Assembly (NCBI GenBank): GCA_016183565.1
Contig: JACPEJ010000001.1
Location: 114,257 to 178,256 of the forward strand
Direction of reading: 5' to 3'
DNA: 64,000 nucleotides
Source: Candidatus Blackburnbacteria bacterium
GTDB taxonomy: Bacteria > Patescibacteriota > Microgenomatia > UBA8517 > UBA10165
Each line of letters begins with the position of its first letter. Within the stretch, counting starts at the first letter, position 1. Both the position numbers and the translations under genes were made by a program. Positions 28,375-31,184 of this stretch are shown here, piece after piece. The notes under the pieces are model-generated. The model saw only the letters and a list, made by a program, of their open reading frames with translations, had not been told where the DNA came from and did not search any database.

Positions 28375-28412
28375 GCGCCTGCCCGCCTCTGGAGGGCCCT
28401 CGCTTTGATTTT
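28375..28412. repeat. Left 38-bp terminal inverted repeat (gcgcctgcccgcctctggagggccctcgctttgatttt)
   Basis: Its perfect reverse complement occurs at 31147-31184. GC-rich relative to flanks. Confidence 0.85.
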
Positions 28413-28463
28413 ATGAAATTTGCAGGAGAGGAGATAGTTAGATCGAGAAAAAAATAGAAATAT

Positions 28464-31148
28464 ATGGGCAAAAACTGGTATGCGATTTCACTTGACAGTG
28501 TTTTCGCTGAATTAAAAACGAAAGATATTGGGCTTACCGATTCGGAAGCAAATCGGCGGCTGAAAGAATTTGGACGTAATACTCTCCCTCAAGAAAAACC
28601 GTATTCCAAGATACGGCTCTTTTTACGTCAGTTCAATAGTCCTTTGATGTATATCCTACTCGCAACGGTGCTCATCTCTTTTTCGCTCAAACATTACTCT
28701 GACTCCATATTTATCATCGTTGTCCTGCTTATTAATACCACCGTCGGGTTTTATCAAGAAAACAAAGCCAACCGATCGCTTTTGGCCCTTAAGAGAATGG
28801 TAAAAATCCGAGCAAGGGTTTTACGGGATGGCTATGAGAAAGAAATTGACAGCGAGGAATTGGTTGCCGGAGACATTGTGCTTTTGAAATCAGGGGACAA
28901 AGTGCCAGCCGACGGCCGGGTTATTGAATCAAAAGGATTGAAAGTAAATGAAGCGAGCCTCACGGGCGAATCCCAAGCAGTTGAAAAGAAAGCCGTTGAT
29001 TTGCTTCCGGAAGATACGCCGCTTCCCGAGCGAACCAACATGATCTTTATGGGAACGATTGTGGAAGAAGGACGAGCTACCGCCGTTATTATTGCAACGG
29101 GGATTAACACACAAATCGGTGAAGTCGTCTCGCTTCTCAAAGAGACAAAAGAACGCCTGACTCCGCTTCAAAAAAAGATTGCCACGCTTTCGCGCTGGCT
29201 CGGCGTTTTTATTCTTTCAATTATTTTCATCGTCCTTATCGAAGGCTATTTCACCGAGAAAAACTTCGCTGAAATTTTTGTGGCTTCTATTGCTTTGGCG
29301 GTTTCGGCGATTCCGGCGGGGCTACTTCCCGCTGTGACGGTTATCCTTGTTTTTGGAATGAGGCGCATTTTCAAAACAAACGGCTTAGTAAGAAAATTGT
29401 CCGCAACAGAAACTTTGGGCGGCGTAACCGTTATCTGCACCGATAAAACCGGCACGCTCACCGAGGGCAAGATGCAAGTGAGCCATATCCTGACAAGCAC
29501 CCGAGAATTAATGAGCGGCGGTCTCAACGGACTTGCAAAAGGAGAAAATGCCAACGGAGTTGAATCGCACATCGCCGCGTTGAAAATAGCTACATTGACG
29601 AACGACGCCTTTGTAGAAAATCCCGAAGCCGAACTACAGGAATGGATAATGCGTGGCAGACCGACCGAGCGCGCCCTGCTTTTGGCCGGAATGCAGGCTG
29701 GCTTAAACAAGCGCGAACTCGAAAAACAGTACCCGGTGATTGATAGAATCAGTTTTGAGTCGGACTATAAATACGCGGCCACTTTGCATCATGTAAGCGA
29801 ACATAAAAACTCGCTCTATGTCATAGGCGCGCCGGAAGAAATCATCGCGCGTTCCGTTGATTTGGATATTGACGGACGAAAAGAAAAACTCGGCACTTCG
29901 GAATCAGACAAATTGATGCAAAAATTCGAATCGCTGACTCAAAAAGGATTGCGAGTGCTTGCCTGCGCCCATAAGGATTACGAGGCCGGCGAAAAATATC
30001 AAAATCTTGCCGATTTAGTAAAAGACCTTACGCTTGTGGGATTTATCGCTCTCAAGGACCCACTCCGCCAAGACGCCAAAGAATATATTGGCATTACTAA
30101 AAAGGCCGGCATCCGCACCGTCATTGTGACTGGCGATCACCGATTAACCGCCAAAGCCATTGCCGAAGAAATCGGTCTTGACGCGAGAGACGAAAATATA
30201 ATTGACGGCAAAGAATTGGAAATTATCAGCGACGATGATCTGCGAGAAAAAGCCAAATATGTTTCCATTTATGCCCGCGTCTCCCCTCGCCACAAATTAA
30301 GAATCGTTGCCGCGCTTCAGGCAAATGAGGAAGTGGTGGCGATGCTTGGGGACGGAGTGAACGATGCCCCGGCCTTGAAATCCGCGGATATCGGCGTGGC
30401 GGTCGGTTCCGGCACGGATGTGGCGAAAGAAGTGGCCGACTTGGTTCTTTTGGACGACAATTTCAAAACCGTGGTAAAGGCCATTGAGCAAGGCAGAGTT
30501 GTCTTTGGGAATATCCGAAAAGTTTTCGTGTATTTAGTCGCCGACGATTTTTCCGAACTCTTTTTGTTTTTAGGAAGCATGGCGATGGGATTCCCTCTCC
30601 CGCTACTACCTGCCCAAATTCTTTGGATCAATCTTGTTGAGGACGGTCTCCCTGATATCGCCCTAACCACCGAACAAGAAACAAAAGGGGTAATGGAAGA
30701 GAAACCGAGAAATCCCAAAGAACCGATATTAAATAAACCGATGAAGCATTGGATGGCCGCCATATTTTTAATTACAGGCATAGCGGCATTTCTTTCTTTC
30801 TTTATCCTTTGGAAATTAACGGGCGATATACAAAAAACACGAACAATAGTATTTGCTCTCATGTGTTTCGATTCTTTAATCTTTGCCTTCAGCGTCCGTT
30901 CGTTCAAAAGAACAATTTTCAGGAAAGATATCTTTTCTAATCGCTATCTTGTCGGAGCGGTGGCAATAAGTTTTCTGCTGCTCATTGGCGCGGTCTACTT
31001 ACCGCCATTACAAAAACTTCTCTCAACGCAGCCATTGGGCATAATCGAGTGGTTAATTATCTTCAGCATAAGCTTGGTGGAAATTTTGCTTATTGAGTTT
31101 TCCAAGAAAAGGATTTTTGCGTCATCTCGGCCTTTACAAATTTCGTAA
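28464..31148 (+). CDS. Cation-transporting P-type ATPase (P2/P3-type, Ca/Mg-like)
   Basis: CTDKTGTLTEG phosphorylation motif, GDGVNDAPALK hinge motif, TGES, about 10 TM helices; 894 aa. Higher GC than flanks. Confidence 0.9.
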   Translation: MGKNWYAISLDSVFAELKTKDIGLTDSEANRRLKEFGRNTLPQEKPYSKIRLFLRQFNSPLMYILLATVLISFSLKHYSDSIFIIVVLLINTTVGFYQENKANRSLLALKRMVKIRARVLRDGYEKEIDSEELVAGDIVLLKSGDKVPADGRVIESKGLKVNEASLTGESQAVEKKAVDLLPEDTPLPERTNMIFMGTIVEEGRATAVIIATGINTQIGEVVSLLKETKERLTPLQKKIATLSRWLGVFILSIIFIVLIEGYFTEKNFAEIFVASIALAVSAIPAGLLPAVTVILVFGMRRIFKTNGLVRKLSATETLGGVTVICTDKTGTLTEGKMQVSHILTSTRELMSGGLNGLAKGENANGVESHIAALKIATLTNDAFVENPEAELQEWIMRGRPTERALLLAGMQAGLNKRELEKQYPVIDRISFESDYKYAATLHHVSEHKNSLYVIGAPEEIIARSVDLDIDGRKEKLGTSESDKLMQKFESLTQKGLRVLACAHKDYEAGEKYQNLADLVKDLTLVGFIALKDPLRQDAKEYIGITKKAGIRTVIVTGDHRLTAKAIAEEIGLDARDENIIDGKELEIISDDDLREKAKYVSIYARVSPRHKLRIVAALQANEEVVAMLGDGVNDAPALKSADIGVAVGSGTDVAKEVADLVLLDDNFKTVVKAIEQGRVVFGNIRKVFVYLVADDFSELFLFLGSMAMGFPLPLLPAQILWINLVEDGLPDIALTTEQETKGVMEEKPRNPKEPILNKPMKHWMAAIFLITGIAAFLSFFILWKLTGDIQKTRTIVFALMCFDSLIFAFSVRSFKRTIFRKDIFSNRYLVGAVAISFLLLIGAVYLPPLQKLLSTQPLGIIEWLIIFSISLVEILLIEFSKKRIFASSRPLQIS

Positions 31149-31184
31149 AATCAAAGCGAGGGCCCTCCAGAGGCGGGCAGGCGC
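31147..31184. repeat. Right 38-bp terminal inverted repeat (aaaatcaaagcgagggccctccagaggcgggcaggcgc); overlaps the ATPase stop codon
   Basis: Perfect reverse complement of 28375-28412. Confidence 0.85.

What the first reader, a model, noticed from the sequence alone, without database searches (positions are those of the whole stretch)
28375..31184. P-type ATPase gene carried on a 2.8-kb segment bounded by perfect 38-bp GC-rich inverted repeats, inserted into hsdS beside tRNA-Cys
gcgcctgcccgcctctggagggccctcgctttgatttt (28375-28412) and its exact reverse complement (31147-31184) bracket the ATPase CDS plus about 50 bp of leader. The right repeat overlaps the stop codon. The repeats are about 68% GC and the ATPase about 50% GC, in a 40% GC genome. 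The left repeat truncates the hsdS reading frame, and tRNA-Cys lies 90 bp beyond the right repeat. There is no transposase or integrase inside. Possible explanations are a non-autonomous MITE-like cargo transposon mobilised in trans, a passenger cassette for a site-specific system, or a horizontally acquired gene delivered with terminal repeats.
Basis: seen in the sequence. Interest (0 to 1): 0.7.

Follow-up and report, generated by a model that had tools for sequence, protein, structure and literature searches.

The report
Inverted-repeat-bracketed, horizontally acquired ATPase gene cassette
A complete cation-pump gene that has jumped between distant groups of ultra-small (CPR) bacteria sits here between two near-perfect inverted repeats with no transposase, inside a small island of foreign DNA next to a tRNA gene; related repeats bracket the same pump gene, and in one case a restriction-modification cassette, in other CPR genomes.

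Summary
28375-28412 is the exact reverse complement of 31147-31184, and the pairing extends inward to 48 nt (47/48). It is the strongest inverted repeat in the window.

The arms abut an intact type-II P-type ATPase cassette, and the right arm supplies the last codons and the stop. The gene is clearly horizontally mobile within CPR bacteria: it is 87% nt identical to a Yanofskybacteria copy, whereas GroEL of two Blackburnbacteria is 69% nt identical. About 100 loci show unrelated neighbours.

In the window the cassette lies in a 4.9-kb lineage-specific islet between an M23 peptidase gene and the 3' side of tRNA-Cys. A related genome has 211 nt there.

It was not inserted into hsdS. The left arm abuts a separate decayed R-M module bounded by its own 24-nt direct repeats. 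The GC contrast was overstated (45.7% vs 40.9%).

The arms belong to a GC-rich repeat family found beside this ATPase elsewhere, paired in L002 and L050 and single in L042, L044, L047 and L001. About 200-nt inverted arms of the family bracket an R-M cassette in L037.

There is no target-site duplication, no recombinase in the window, no terminator or RNA signature, and no precise empty site.

Best reading: a transposase-less, transposon-like passenger cassette, as described for R-M genes. Its mechanism is unproven.

The parts
28375..28435 (+). Left arm of the inverted repeat: outer 38 nt perfect, 47/48 to 28422, weaker to 28435. It lies upstream of the ATPase promoter-like region. Its inner part is an inverted copy of an ATPase C-terminal tail plus stop, of the L002-type allele.
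28436..28463 (+). Short promoter/leader region. Homology with the arm-less sister copy L001 starts at about 28440. Relatives carry an extended -10-like TGGTAAAAT about 8-9 nt before the ATG; the window has an 8-nt deletion there.
28464..31148 (+). Intact P-type (type IIA-like, PMR1/SERCA-like) cation ATPase, 894 aa. The conserved core ends at about 31118 (...KKRIF). The last 8 codons plus stop lie in the right arm.
31124..31184 (-). Right arm of the inverted repeat. It contains the GC-rich family core AAAGCGAGGGC... and overlaps the ATPase tail codons and TAA stop.
31185..31274 (.). 90-nt spacer between the right arm and tRNA-Cys. Its first ~35 nt align colinearly with the GC-rich part of the L037 arm (z 3.5, 0.7% of shuffles); the left flank does not.
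31275..31349 (-). tRNA-Cys(GCA), with its 3' end facing the islet. There is no att-like duplicate of its 3' end in the window. Six independent Logan contigs of the same strain all break at 31295-31300, inside the tRNA.
26349..31274 (.). Lineage-specific islet of 4,926 nt between the M23 peptidase gene and tRNA-Cys. The related Blackburnbacteria genome L124 has only 211 nt between the same two genes, with otherwise conserved gene order.
26680..26703 (+). Copy 1 of a 24-nt direct repeat (21/24). It is followed in frame by ...ERCYRREDITCPSKF*, the apparent C-terminal wing of the HTH gene.
28351..28374 (+). Copy 2 of the 24-nt direct repeat. It encodes ...RVGTRRGVG at the end of the HTH fragment and directly abuts the left arm.
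26867..28350 (+). Decayed R-M module: internally deleted hsdM (26867-27301, N- and C-terminal pieces only), a DUF3800 gene (27298-27984), a putative hsdS N-terminal stub with a frameshift (28073-~28290, no Pfam support), and a MerR/excisionase-like HTH 5' fragment (~28290-28374).
26376..26402 (.). GC-rich perfect palindrome CCCGCCAGCTGGCGGG at the left edge of the islet. Apart from the two arms it is the only tract in 64 kb with >=17/20 G+C. It resembles the arms' internal GCCCGCC-TCT-GGAGGGC.
17565..17610 (+). Third, partial relative of the arm core (GCGGCGAAAGCGAGGGCGAGGCGGAGCGTC; 19/20 to the element after the L042 ATPase), at the right edge of a type II R-M block.

Best explanation
The segment is a transposase-less, transposon-like passenger cassette. 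It is a self-contained expression unit (short promoter plus a type-II P-type cation ATPase) bracketed by 48-61-nt inverted arms that abut the conserved core of the gene on both sides.

The cassette was acquired horizontally by a Candidatus Blackburnbacteria genome. It now lies beside a decayed restriction-modification module in a 4.9-kb islet at the 3' side of tRNA-Cys.

The arms are members of a GC-rich boundary-repeat family shared among CPR genomes. That family marks the edges of mobile single-function cassettes: this ATPase, with or without a small zinc-ribbon ORF, and an R-M system.

Proposed working: the arm-gene-arm unit is moved or inserted as a whole by functions supplied in trans, either an unidentified recombinase/transposase or host recombination acting on DNA taken up from the environment. 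After insertion the arms decay, which would explain why most copies of the gene lack them.

Shown: the repeat, its exact geometry, horizontal transfer of the gene, the islet, the repeat family and its second cargo.
Inferred: that the arms are the functional ends, and that mobilisation is in trans.
For: 1. Exact 38-nt (47/48 over 48 nt) inverted arms, unique in the window and the strongest inverted repeat there.
2. Horizontal transfer. W versus the Yanofskybacteria copy (Parcubacteria group) is 87% nt / 92% aa, while GroEL of W versus another Blackburnbacteria (Microgenomates group) is 69% nt. Neighbours are unrelated in about 100 loci.
3. Homology between loci stops within about 25-30 nt of the ATG and right after the KKRIF codons (W 31117/8 in five comparisons). 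The C-terminal tails are otherwise hypervariable. In W the arms start exactly at those limits.
4. The same arms and the same left junction occur in L002. L050 has 48-nt arms (44/48) sharing the 14-nt core GCCCTCGCTTTGAT. L035 has >=30-nt inverted ends with the same architecture. Contigs end in or at the arms in all three.
5. The family core also occurs singly after the ATPase in L042 and L044, upstream in L047 (19/19), degenerate in L001, and as ~200-nt inverted arms (97% identical) around an R-M cassette in L037. The L037 arm contains L002's arm sequence.
6. Flank repeats (inverted or direct) bracket about 11/92 ATPase loci versus 2/121 control placements (Fisher p = 0.002).
7. Islet-level empty site in L124.
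8. The structural class is documented for R-M genes: long unit-specific inverted repeats, no transposase, possibly non-autonomous (PMC2853133).
Against: - No target-site duplication at the arm ends in W, L050 or L037.
- No recombinase, transposase or integrase in the 64-kb window or near L050 and L037.
- No second full copy of the arm in the window, and no hit for the shared W/L002 arm core in the JGI metagenome scan.
- No precise empty site and no excised or inverted form has been seen.
- The outer parts of the W and L002 arms differ, although each genome's two arms agree. That needs concerted change.
- The right flank beyond the arm still weakly resembles the family element, while the left flank does not. 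This hints that the left arm is a partial copy rather than a true terminus.
- About 88% of ATPase loci have no bracketing repeat, and degenerate arm cores are not enriched next to them.
- L002 is a 2.9-kb binned contig, so its host assignment is weak.
Confidence: 0.42

Rival explanations
1. Rearrangement scar. The ATPase arrived with a single 3' boundary element of the GC-rich family. A 61-nt piece of it (tail codons plus about 36 nt) was later copied in inverted orientation to the 5' edge of the cassette, by replication template switching or an inversion-linked duplication. On this view the arms are not element termini and have no function.
For: - The sister copy L001 has only a degenerate right-hand element and no left arm. 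L042 and L044 have only a right-hand copy.
- The W right flank beyond the arm aligns colinearly with the L037 arm (z 3.5), while the left flank does not (z -0.5).
- There is no target-site duplication and no transposase.
- The left arm's inner part is an inverted copy of a C-terminal tail allele.
Against: - The inverted pair with the same left junction is shared by W and L002, and a homologous pair exists in L050 with a different architecture. The paired state is therefore inherited or transferred, or arises recurrently at the same spot.
- Arms of the same family bracket a different cargo in L037.
- The homology of the right flank is weak (one of four tests, p about 0.007).
- A simple inversion-with-duplication model predicts that the ancestral junction is on the left side, which is the opposite of what L001 shows (inference).
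Confidence: 0.3
2. Invertible segment. The arms are crossover sites for a site-specific invertase, or for RecA-mediated flipping, so the 2.7-kb cassette exists in both orientations in the population.
For: - The geometry resembles 1-4-kb invertible segments flanked by 26-40-bp inverted repeats (established knowledge of Hin/Gin-type systems).
- Contigs of L002, L035 and L050 terminate in or at the arms, as expected if the orientation is heterogeneous.
- The two arms evolve in concert within each genome.
Against: - No recombinase gene is adjacent or anywhere in the window.
- The cassette carries its own promoter-like sequence and stop inside or within the arms, so flipping would switch nothing.
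- Contig breaks are equally expected from repeats at or above the assembler's k (L035, k = 31) or from multi-genome sharing.
- No contig with the opposite orientation was seen.
Confidence: 0.08
3. Remnant of a tRNA-Cys-targeting integrative island. The ATPase and the R-M module were delivered by an integrase-bearing island whose integrase and att sites have since been lost, and the inverted repeat is incidental.
For: - The islet sits at the 3' side of tRNA-Cys and is absent from L124.
- An excisionase/MerR-like HTH fragment and a module with 24-nt direct repeats are present.
- tRNA genes are also adjacent to the ATPase in L012, L042 and L044.
- All Logan contigs break inside the tRNA.
Against: - No integrase and no duplicate of the tRNA 3' end.
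- This does not explain the arms or their recurrence around the same gene elsewhere.
- It is compatible with, rather than exclusive of, the best explanation.
Confidence: 0.1
4. Functional cis elements: a pair of terminators or insulators facing into the cassette, or 5'-3' mRNA pairing.
For: Each arm contains a small imperfect hairpin (GCCC-G-CC TCT GG-A-GGGC) followed by a T-rich stretch when read into the cassette.
Against: - The terminator scan finds nothing at the arms.
- Single-arm folds are no better than shuffles (z 0.3, 0.3, -0.2), and the right-hand region has z +1.8.
- No Rfam match.
- The left arm lies upstream of the conserved -10-like promoter in L002, L035 and L050, so it is probably not in the mRNA.
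- The repeat is absent from most orthologous cassettes.
Confidence: 0.04
5. Assembly artefact: a chimeric join of an ATPase contig from another community member into the Blackburnbacteria contig through shared GC-rich repeats.
For: - The gene and the repeat family are shared by several co-occurring genomes.
- ATPase-only contigs that end in the arms exist (L002, L035).
- The exact ATPase product is not on record in the contig index, although the identical flanking PEGA gene is found in 7 contigs.
Against: - In a de Bruijn graph both ends of the ATPase node attach to the same side of the repeat node, so a path A-arm-ATPase-arm'-B needs arm and arm' in the host anyway (inference).
- L050 shows an arm continuous with 3 kb of host flank.
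- Diverged arm pairs (L050 44/48, L002 33/34) cannot be assembly artefacts.
- NCBI holds the identical protein on the 686-kb contig.
Confidence: 0.05

Closest known systems
Transposon-like gene units flanked by long, unit-specific inverted repeats without a transposase (described for restriction-modification genes; Furuta, Abe & Kobayashi 2010, PMC2853133)
   Same: Both are compact units of 1-3 genes bracketed by long, nearly perfect inverted repeats (26/26 and 60/65 there; 38/38 or 47/48 here). The repeats are absent elsewhere in the genome, there is no mobility gene inside, the cargo is horizontally mobile, and mobilisation in trans is suspected. One family member here (L037) actually carries an R-M cassette.
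   Different: - The cargo is a P-type ATPase and the hosts are CPR bacteria.
- There is no 8-bp target duplication.
- The right arm supplies the gene's last codons and stop.
- The arms belong to a repeat family shared between genomes rather than being unique to one unit.
- No precise empty site is available.
Insertion with long target duplication (Nobusato/Furuta/Kobayashi; PMC2853133)
   Same: Other copies of this ATPase are bracketed by 29-122-nt direct repeats of local, mostly intergenic sequence with no mobility genes (L030, L032/L060, L036/37, L051/52). The R-M remnant next to the left arm has 24-nt direct repeats.
   Different: The window's ATPase has inverted, not direct, repeats. The direct repeats elsewhere are 80-93% identical (old). 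No empty sites were available to prove target duplication.
MITE-like / non-autonomous TIR transposons carrying passenger genes
   Same: Terminal inverted repeats, no transposase inside, and a related repeat family in several genomes.
   Different: There is no target-site duplication, no multi-copy family in the 64-kb window, and no autonomous partner identified. The arm sequence is poorly conserved between family members beyond a 10-20-nt core.
Invertible DNA segments (Hin/Gin/Cin/Pin-type, shufflons)
   Same: A 1-4-kb segment between 26-40-bp inverted repeats, and the arm overlaps the 3' end of a coding sequence.
   Different: There is no adjacent recombinase, nothing is switched by inversion, and both orientations have not been observed.
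tRNA-associated genomic islands
   Same: Foreign DNA at the 3' side of a tRNA gene, absent from a related genome, containing R-M and excisionase-like remnants.
   Different: No integrase and no tRNA-derived att repeat. The island is only 4.9 kb and is modular (an R-M module with its own direct repeats plus the arm-bracketed ATPase).

Membership tests
TIR-bounded DNA transposon / MITE-like non-autonomous element | Terminal inverted repeats at both ends | tested here: met
   38/38, 47/48 over 48 nt, with a sharp outer boundary
TIR-bounded DNA transposon / MITE-like non-autonomous element | Short direct target-site duplication immediately outside the TIRs | tested here: not met
   Left flank ...GCGGTGTGG, right flank GGCGGAAGG.... 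None in L050 or L037 either.
TIR-bounded DNA transposon / MITE-like non-autonomous element | Multiple copies, or the same ends in different genomic contexts | tested here: inconclusive
   - In 64 kb there are only the two arms plus one partial relative at ~17.58 kb.
- Homologous arm pairs occur in L002 and L050, and in L037 with other cargo. Single copies occur in L042, L044, L047 and L001.
- The W/L002 core pattern gave 0 hits in the JGI metagenome scan.
- The rest of the 686-kb genome was not available.
TIR-bounded DNA transposon / MITE-like non-autonomous element | Cognate transposase (autonomous partner) with matching ends | tested here: not met
   No transposase, recombinase or integrase domain in window ORFs >=110 aa. 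None near L050 or L037. This could not be tested genome-wide.
TIR-bounded DNA transposon / MITE-like non-autonomous element | Empty site whose breakpoints coincide with the TIR outer ends | not testable with these tools
   The only available relative (L124, GroEL 69% nt) shows an islet-level empty site: M23 to tRNA-Cys is 211 nt versus 4,926 nt. Context look-ups were exhausted.
Transposase-less IR-flanked gene units (Furuta et al. 2010) | Long, near-perfect inverted repeats bracketing a compact gene unit with no mobility gene | tested here: met
   definition from PMC2853133
Transposase-less IR-flanked gene units (Furuta et al. 2010) | Repeats absent from the empty-site genome and flanked by a short target duplication (shown for two of their cases) | tested here: not met
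   No target duplication. The arms are absent from L124, but that comparison is only at islet level.
Invertible segment (site-specific inversion) | Recombinase gene adjacent to or within the segment | tested here: not met
   only a 24-aa MerR/excisionase-like HTH fragment abuts the left arm
Invertible segment (site-specific inversion) | Both orientations present in the population | not testable with these tools
   This needs read-level data. Logan contigs of the same strain break inside tRNA-Cys before reaching the arm.
tRNA-integrating genomic island | Integrase plus direct repeat derived from the tRNA 3' end | tested here: not met
   No integrase, and no duplicate of the tRNA-Cys 3' end in the window. 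The location at the tRNA 3' side is met.
Intrinsic terminator / structured RNA element | Stable hairpin followed by a T-tract, or a fold better than shuffles, or an Rfam match | tested here: not met
P-type (E1-E2) cation ATPase, type II | N-terminal, actuator (E1-E2), HAD/phosphorylation (DKTGT), nucleotide-binding and C-terminal membrane domains | tested here: met
   Pfam PF00690, PF00122, PF00702, PF13246 and PF00689 are all above cut-off. The best NCBIfam matches are the PMR1/SERCA-type Ca2+ ATPases, but below their equivalog cut-offs, so the ion specificity is not assigned.

The most novel reading that the evidence does not exclude
CPR (Patescibacteria) genomes share a so-far undescribed gene-cassette mobility system. 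A family of GC-rich boundary repeats marks the ends of single-function expression cassettes: this promiscuous P-type ATPase, with or without a zinc-ribbon ORF, and R-M systems. These cassettes move between candidate phyla without carrying a recombinase. They leave either inverted arms or long direct duplications, perhaps through a DNA-uptake-linked or hairpin/template-switch insertion mechanism. The window holds one of the youngest, still perfect, copies.
Probability: 0.18. Interest if true: 0.75.

Novelty: new variant of a known kind. Interest (0 to 1): 0.5.

Why it matters
CPR bacteria have tiny genomes, few recognisable mobile elements and no cultivated genetics, so how they exchange genes is largely unknown. 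Here one pump gene is 75-92% identical in protein sequence across candidate phyla. It always sits in new surroundings, with homology ending at the gene's edges. In a minority of cases it still carries bracketing repeats of a shared family that also brackets an R-M cassette. If the arms are functional ends, this gives a concrete, sequence-defined handle (arm sequences, a young perfect copy, named public read sets) for finding the enzyme and mechanism behind gene-sized horizontal transfer in this large, poorly understood part of the bacterial tree. If they are scars, they still document a recurrent insertion-linked duplication process previously described mainly for R-M genes in cultivated bacteria.

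Tried and rejected
- Dispersed REP-like family inside the window: rejected. There are only two copies at <=3 mismatches and no longer matches with short-word BLAST. One partial relative of the GC core was found later at ~17.58 kb.
- Terminator or RNA element: rejected.
- tRNA-Cys att duplicate delimiting an island: none.
- Strong compositional anomaly: rejected. The ATPase is 45.7% GC versus 40.9% for the window, neighbours reach 46.5%, and the family-wide offset is +1.7 points.
- Repeat conserved around all orthologues: rejected (0/27; few of 68).
- W/L002 arm core in the JGI metagenomes: 0 hits.
- Phage or plasmid carrier: viral contigs hold only <=31%-identical ATPases, and plasmids give only generic P-type motif matches. 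The 14-mer scan of viral contigs returned chance hits only and was uninformative.
- Decayed arm remnants next to arm-less copies: no enrichment, although the two hits led to L042 and L044.
- ATPase unit inserted into the HTH/hsdS gene: rejected. The HTH continuation lies after copy 1 of the 24-nt direct repeat, not after the right arm.
- Bracket repeat around the window's type II R-M block: not significant.
- L037 as evidence for 'partial copy' arms: withdrawn after gap-tolerant alignment showed its arms continue past a 33-nt indel.
- L111 as a target duplication: it is two intact RRM paralogues.
- Literature on this ATPase or on CPR inverted-repeat cassettes: nothing found.
- The exact ATPase product could not be located in the contig index.

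
Full report
**1. Observation**

The sequence at 28375-28412 (GCGCCTGCCCGCCTCTGGAGGGCCCTCGCTTTGATTTT) is the exact reverse complement of 31147-31184. No shuffle of the window produced a match, and only these two copies exist at up to 3 mismatches. The pairing continues inward to 28422/31137 (47/48), and more weakly to 61 nt at 89%. The outer boundary is sharp even with gap-tolerant alignment. It is the strongest inverted repeat in the 64-kb window.

Between the arms lie about 28-51 nt of leader and one ORF, 28464-31148. 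It is an intact 894-aa P-type ATPase with all five Pfam domains. Its best NCBIfam matches are PMR1/SERCA-type Ca2+ pumps, but below the equivalog cut-offs. tRNA-Cys(GCA) is at 31275-31349 on the minus strand, 90 nt from the right arm.

Two details in the finding are inaccurate:
- The ATPase is 45.7% GC, not about 50%, against 40.9% for the window, and neighbouring genes reach 46.5%.
- The reading frame that runs into the left arm is not simply hsdS (see section 3).

**2. The gene is horizontally promiscuous in CPR bacteria**

The identical protein is annotated on a 686-kb contig of a Candidatus Blackburnbacteria MAG. Homologues of 75-92% amino-acid identity occur in genomes labelled Yanofsky-, Portnoy-, Nealson-, Gribaldo-, Zambryski- and Saccharibacteria and others.

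W and the Yanofskybacteria copy (L001; Parcubacteria group) are 87% identical in nucleotides over the gene. GroEL of W and of another Blackburnbacteria (L124; Microgenomates group) is only 69% identical.

In about 100 loci the neighbours are unrelated. Nucleotide homology between loci begins within about 25-30 nt of the ATG. It ends right after the codons for ...KKRIF, at W 31117/31118 in five independent comparisons. Beyond that point the C-terminal tails are unrelated in nearly every lineage. Relatives carry an extended -10-like TGGTAAAAT just before the ATG. The transferred unit is therefore essentially a short promoter plus the CDS core. No close relative was found on viral contigs or plasmids.

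**3. Context in the window**

A related Blackburnbacteria genome has the order GroES-GroEL-...-M23 peptidase(-)-211 nt-tRNA-Cys(-)-142 nt-PEGA/SH3-...-UbiA-GT4. The window has the same order, but with 4,926 nt between M23 (ends 26348) and tRNA-Cys. The whole block 26349-31274 is therefore a lineage-specific islet at the 3' side of the tRNA.

Besides the ATPase, the islet holds:
- an internally deleted hsdM (26867-27301);
- a DUF3800 gene (27298-27984);
- a putative hsdS N-terminal stub with a frameshift, which has no Pfam support even at E<=10;
- a 24-residue MerR/excisionase-like HTH fragment.

The 24 nt that abut the left arm (28351-28374, encoding ...VGTRRGVG) recur as a direct repeat at 26680-26703 (21/24; z 6.8; 0 of 500 shuffles). 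After copy 1 the frame continues ERCYRREDITCPSKF*. Joining the 5' fragment to this continuation lengthens and improves the MerR_1 and HTH_17 alignments: 19.4 vs 13.9 bits for MerR_1, with profile positions 14-44 vs 14-35.

The R-M remnant is thus a separate module with its own 24-nt direct repeats and a circularly permuted HTH gene. The HTH frame does not resume after the right arm (z 1.9, not significant). The ATPase unit therefore did not insert into hsdS or into the HTH gene. It lies next to another decayed mobile module.

There is no duplicate of the tRNA 3' end, and no integrase, transposase or recombinase in any window ORF of >=110 aa. Six independent Logan contigs of the same strain all break at W 31295-31300, inside tRNA-Cys.

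**4. The arms elsewhere**

None of 27 species-representative loci has an inverted repeat spanning the ATPase. The closest relatives do:
- L002 (89% aa, a 2,875-nt contig that ends in the arms) has arms of 33/34 nt. They are homologous to the inner part of W's arms and share the same junction with the promoter region.
- L001 (92% aa) has only a degenerate right-hand element and no left arm.
- In a second ATPase subfamily, L050 has 48-nt arms (44/48) that enclose the ATPase, a small Cys-rich ORF and a terminator-like hairpin. These arms share the 14-nt core GCCCTCGCTTTGAT with W's arms, which I estimate at about 0.003 by chance over all arm pairs.
- L035 has the same architecture, with perfect 30-nt inverted contig ends of unrelated sequence.

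The GC-rich outer part of W's arm is not host-specific:
- The core AAAGCGAGGGC... follows the ATPase in L042 and L044 (where the contig ends).
- A 19/19 match to CCTGCCCGCCTCTGGAGGG lies upstream of the L047 ATPase, in the opposite orientation.
- A related copy sits at W ~17,580, at the edge of a type II R-M block.

In L037, arms of about 200 nt (171 nt at 97%, continuing past a 33-nt indel) bracket 2.86 kb. That segment encodes an N6-adenine methyltransferase, a PD-(D/E)XK-like protein, an HTH-S24 protein and an SNase-like ORF. The L037 arm contains TGCCGAGCCGTCCTCGCTT, which is L002's arm sequence. L001's 3' flank matches the L037 left arm over 89 nt at 89%.

The arms therefore belong to a loosely conserved repeat family, shared between CPR genomes, that sits at the boundaries of mobile cassettes. 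In the window only three tracts reach >=17/20 G+C: the two arms and a perfect palindrome (26376-26402) at the left edge of the islet.

**5. A wider pattern**

I screened every locus for direct or inverted repeats between the 600-800 nt on either side of the gene. About 11 of about 92 distinct loci have a bracket repeat:
- inverted: W, L002, L035, L050;
- a palindromic 81-nt element on both sides: L097;
- direct: L030 (89 nt), L032/L060 (54-72 nt), L036/37 (29 nt), L051/52 (122 nt), L111 (308 nt, which is two intact RRM paralogues).

This compares with 2 of 121 control placements in the same DNA (Fisher p = 0.002). The direct repeats are 80-93% identical, so they are old and real rather than assembly artefacts.

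Furuta, Abe & Kobayashi (PMC2853133) described the same structural classes for R-M genes. They reported flanking direct and inverted repeats at elevated frequency, insertion with long target duplication, and compact transposon-like units with long unit-specific inverted repeats and no transposase, possibly non-autonomous.

**6. What the arms are not**

- They are not terminators. The scan finds none, and single arms fold no better than shuffles.
- They are not a known RNA, and they share no conserved fold.
- They are probably not part of the mRNA, because the left arm lies upstream of the conserved -10-like box in L002, L035 and L050.
- There is no target-site duplication in W, L050 or L037.

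**7. Interpretation**

Best-supported (confidence about 0.4): an arm-gene-arm passenger cassette of the transposase-less, transposon-like kind, acquired horizontally and lodged in a tRNA-adjacent islet. The arms come from a GC-rich boundary-repeat family and the enzymes are supplied in trans.

Main rival (about 0.3): the left arm is an in-situ, partial inverted copy of a pre-existing 3' boundary element.
- For it: L001, L042 and L044 have only the right-hand element, and W's right flank beyond the arm aligns colinearly with the L037 arm (z 3.5) while the left flank does not.
- Against it: the paired state is shared by W and L002, recurs in L050, and recurs with other cargo in L037.

Inversion, a lost tRNA island, cis-regulatory roles and assembly chimera are less likely, for the reasons given under the rival explanations.

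Shown: the repeat and its geometry, the transfer of the gene, the islet, the repeat family and its second cargo. Inferred: mobility of the arm-bounded unit and its mechanism.

**8. Novelty and verdict**

The structural class is known for R-M genes in cultivated bacteria. New here are the cargo (a pump gene), the host group (CPR), the arm supplying the gene's stop, the absence of a target duplication, and a repeat family shared across genomes with at least two cargo types. I rate it a new variant of a known kind, of moderate interest. Read-level tests on named public runs would settle the question.

Noticed in passing
L037:1004-1174 and 4038-4205 (arms continue to ~945 / ~4230 past a 33-nt indel): Inverted arms of about 200 nt (97% identical) bracket a 2.86-kb restriction-modification cassette: an NPPF methyltransferase, a PD-(D/E)XK-like ORF, an HTH-S24 protein and an SNase-like ORF. 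It lies 1.8 kb upstream of that genome's ATPase. The arm contains L002's ATPase-arm sequence and a 13-bp hairpin.
   Followed up: partly
window:26680-26703 and 28351-28374: A 24-nt direct repeat (21/24) bounds the decayed R-M module. A MerR/excisionase-like HTH gene appears circularly permuted across the two ends, as if a circular element had opened inside that gene.
   Followed up: partly
window:26867-27301: The hsdM gene is reduced to 144 aa by an internal deletion that fuses its N-terminal domain to the last ~50 residues of the methylase domain. A DUF3800 gene follows.
   Followed up: partly
window:31295-31300 (inside tRNA-Cys): Six independent Logan (k=31) contigs carrying the 100%-identical PEGA gene all terminate 20-25 nt from the tRNA-Cys 3' end. 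This suggests sequence heterogeneity, or sharing with other genomes, starting exactly there.
   Followed up: no
window:14623-17522: A type II R-M block (BsaWI-like endonuclease 15928-16596, flanked by two N4/N6 methylase ORFs) lies directly after the tRNA cluster at 12.6-14.2 kb. GC-rich tracts at both edges (14265-14285, 17581-17602) resemble the ATPase arm core. No significant bracket repeat was found.
   Followed up: partly
window:26376-26402: A perfect GC palindrome CCCGCCAGCTGGCGGG lies at the left edge of the islet. It is one of only three tracts in 64 kb with >=17/20 G+C.
   Followed up: no
L035:2824-2907 and L050:~5765-5855: A small Cys-rich (zinc-ribbon-like) ORF, MAEEN.CPKCEHEHK..., followed by a terminator-like hairpin, travels with the ATPase inside the arms in one subfamily. 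It has no family match.
   Followed up: partly
all ATPase homologues (P0001-P0133): The C-terminal tails after the conserved ...KKRIF are unrelated in almost every lineage (1-20 residues). In L032 the tail and stop are supplied by the right copy of a flanking direct repeat.
   Followed up: partly
L097:2889-2969 and 5762-5841: An 81-nt self-palindromic element (TGTCATTCTGAG...CTCAGAATGACA) sits on both sides of that genome's ATPase.
   Followed up: no
L111:2596-2903 and 5747-6050: Two intact paralogous RRM RNA-binding protein genes (81% nt identical) flank the ATPase. An RRM gene also follows the ATPase in L036 and L037.
   Followed up: partly
window:41049-41086 and 49557-49594: A second 38-nt inverted pair (89%), AT-rich, with each arm itself a small hairpin (terminator-like). 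It brackets 8.5 kb containing the MetRS, RmuC, AddA-like helicase-nuclease and FemAB genes.
   Followed up: no
window:3589-3664 and 10125-10149 / 10776-10800: A perfect tandem 38-nt duplication lies inside the SpoIID-domain ORF, and a perfect 25-nt direct repeat has copies 651 nt apart.
   Followed up: no
L018 and L030: Close ATPase copies (79-81% aa) sit on contigs binned as 'Pacearchaeota archaeon' and 'Spirochaetia'. This is either mis-binning or transfer beyond the CPR.
   Followed up: no
window:21955-23034: A 359-aa ORF with no family match and a Cys-rich C-terminus lies between the sigma-70 gene and GroES. The related genome L124 has different small ORFs at this position.
   Followed up: no
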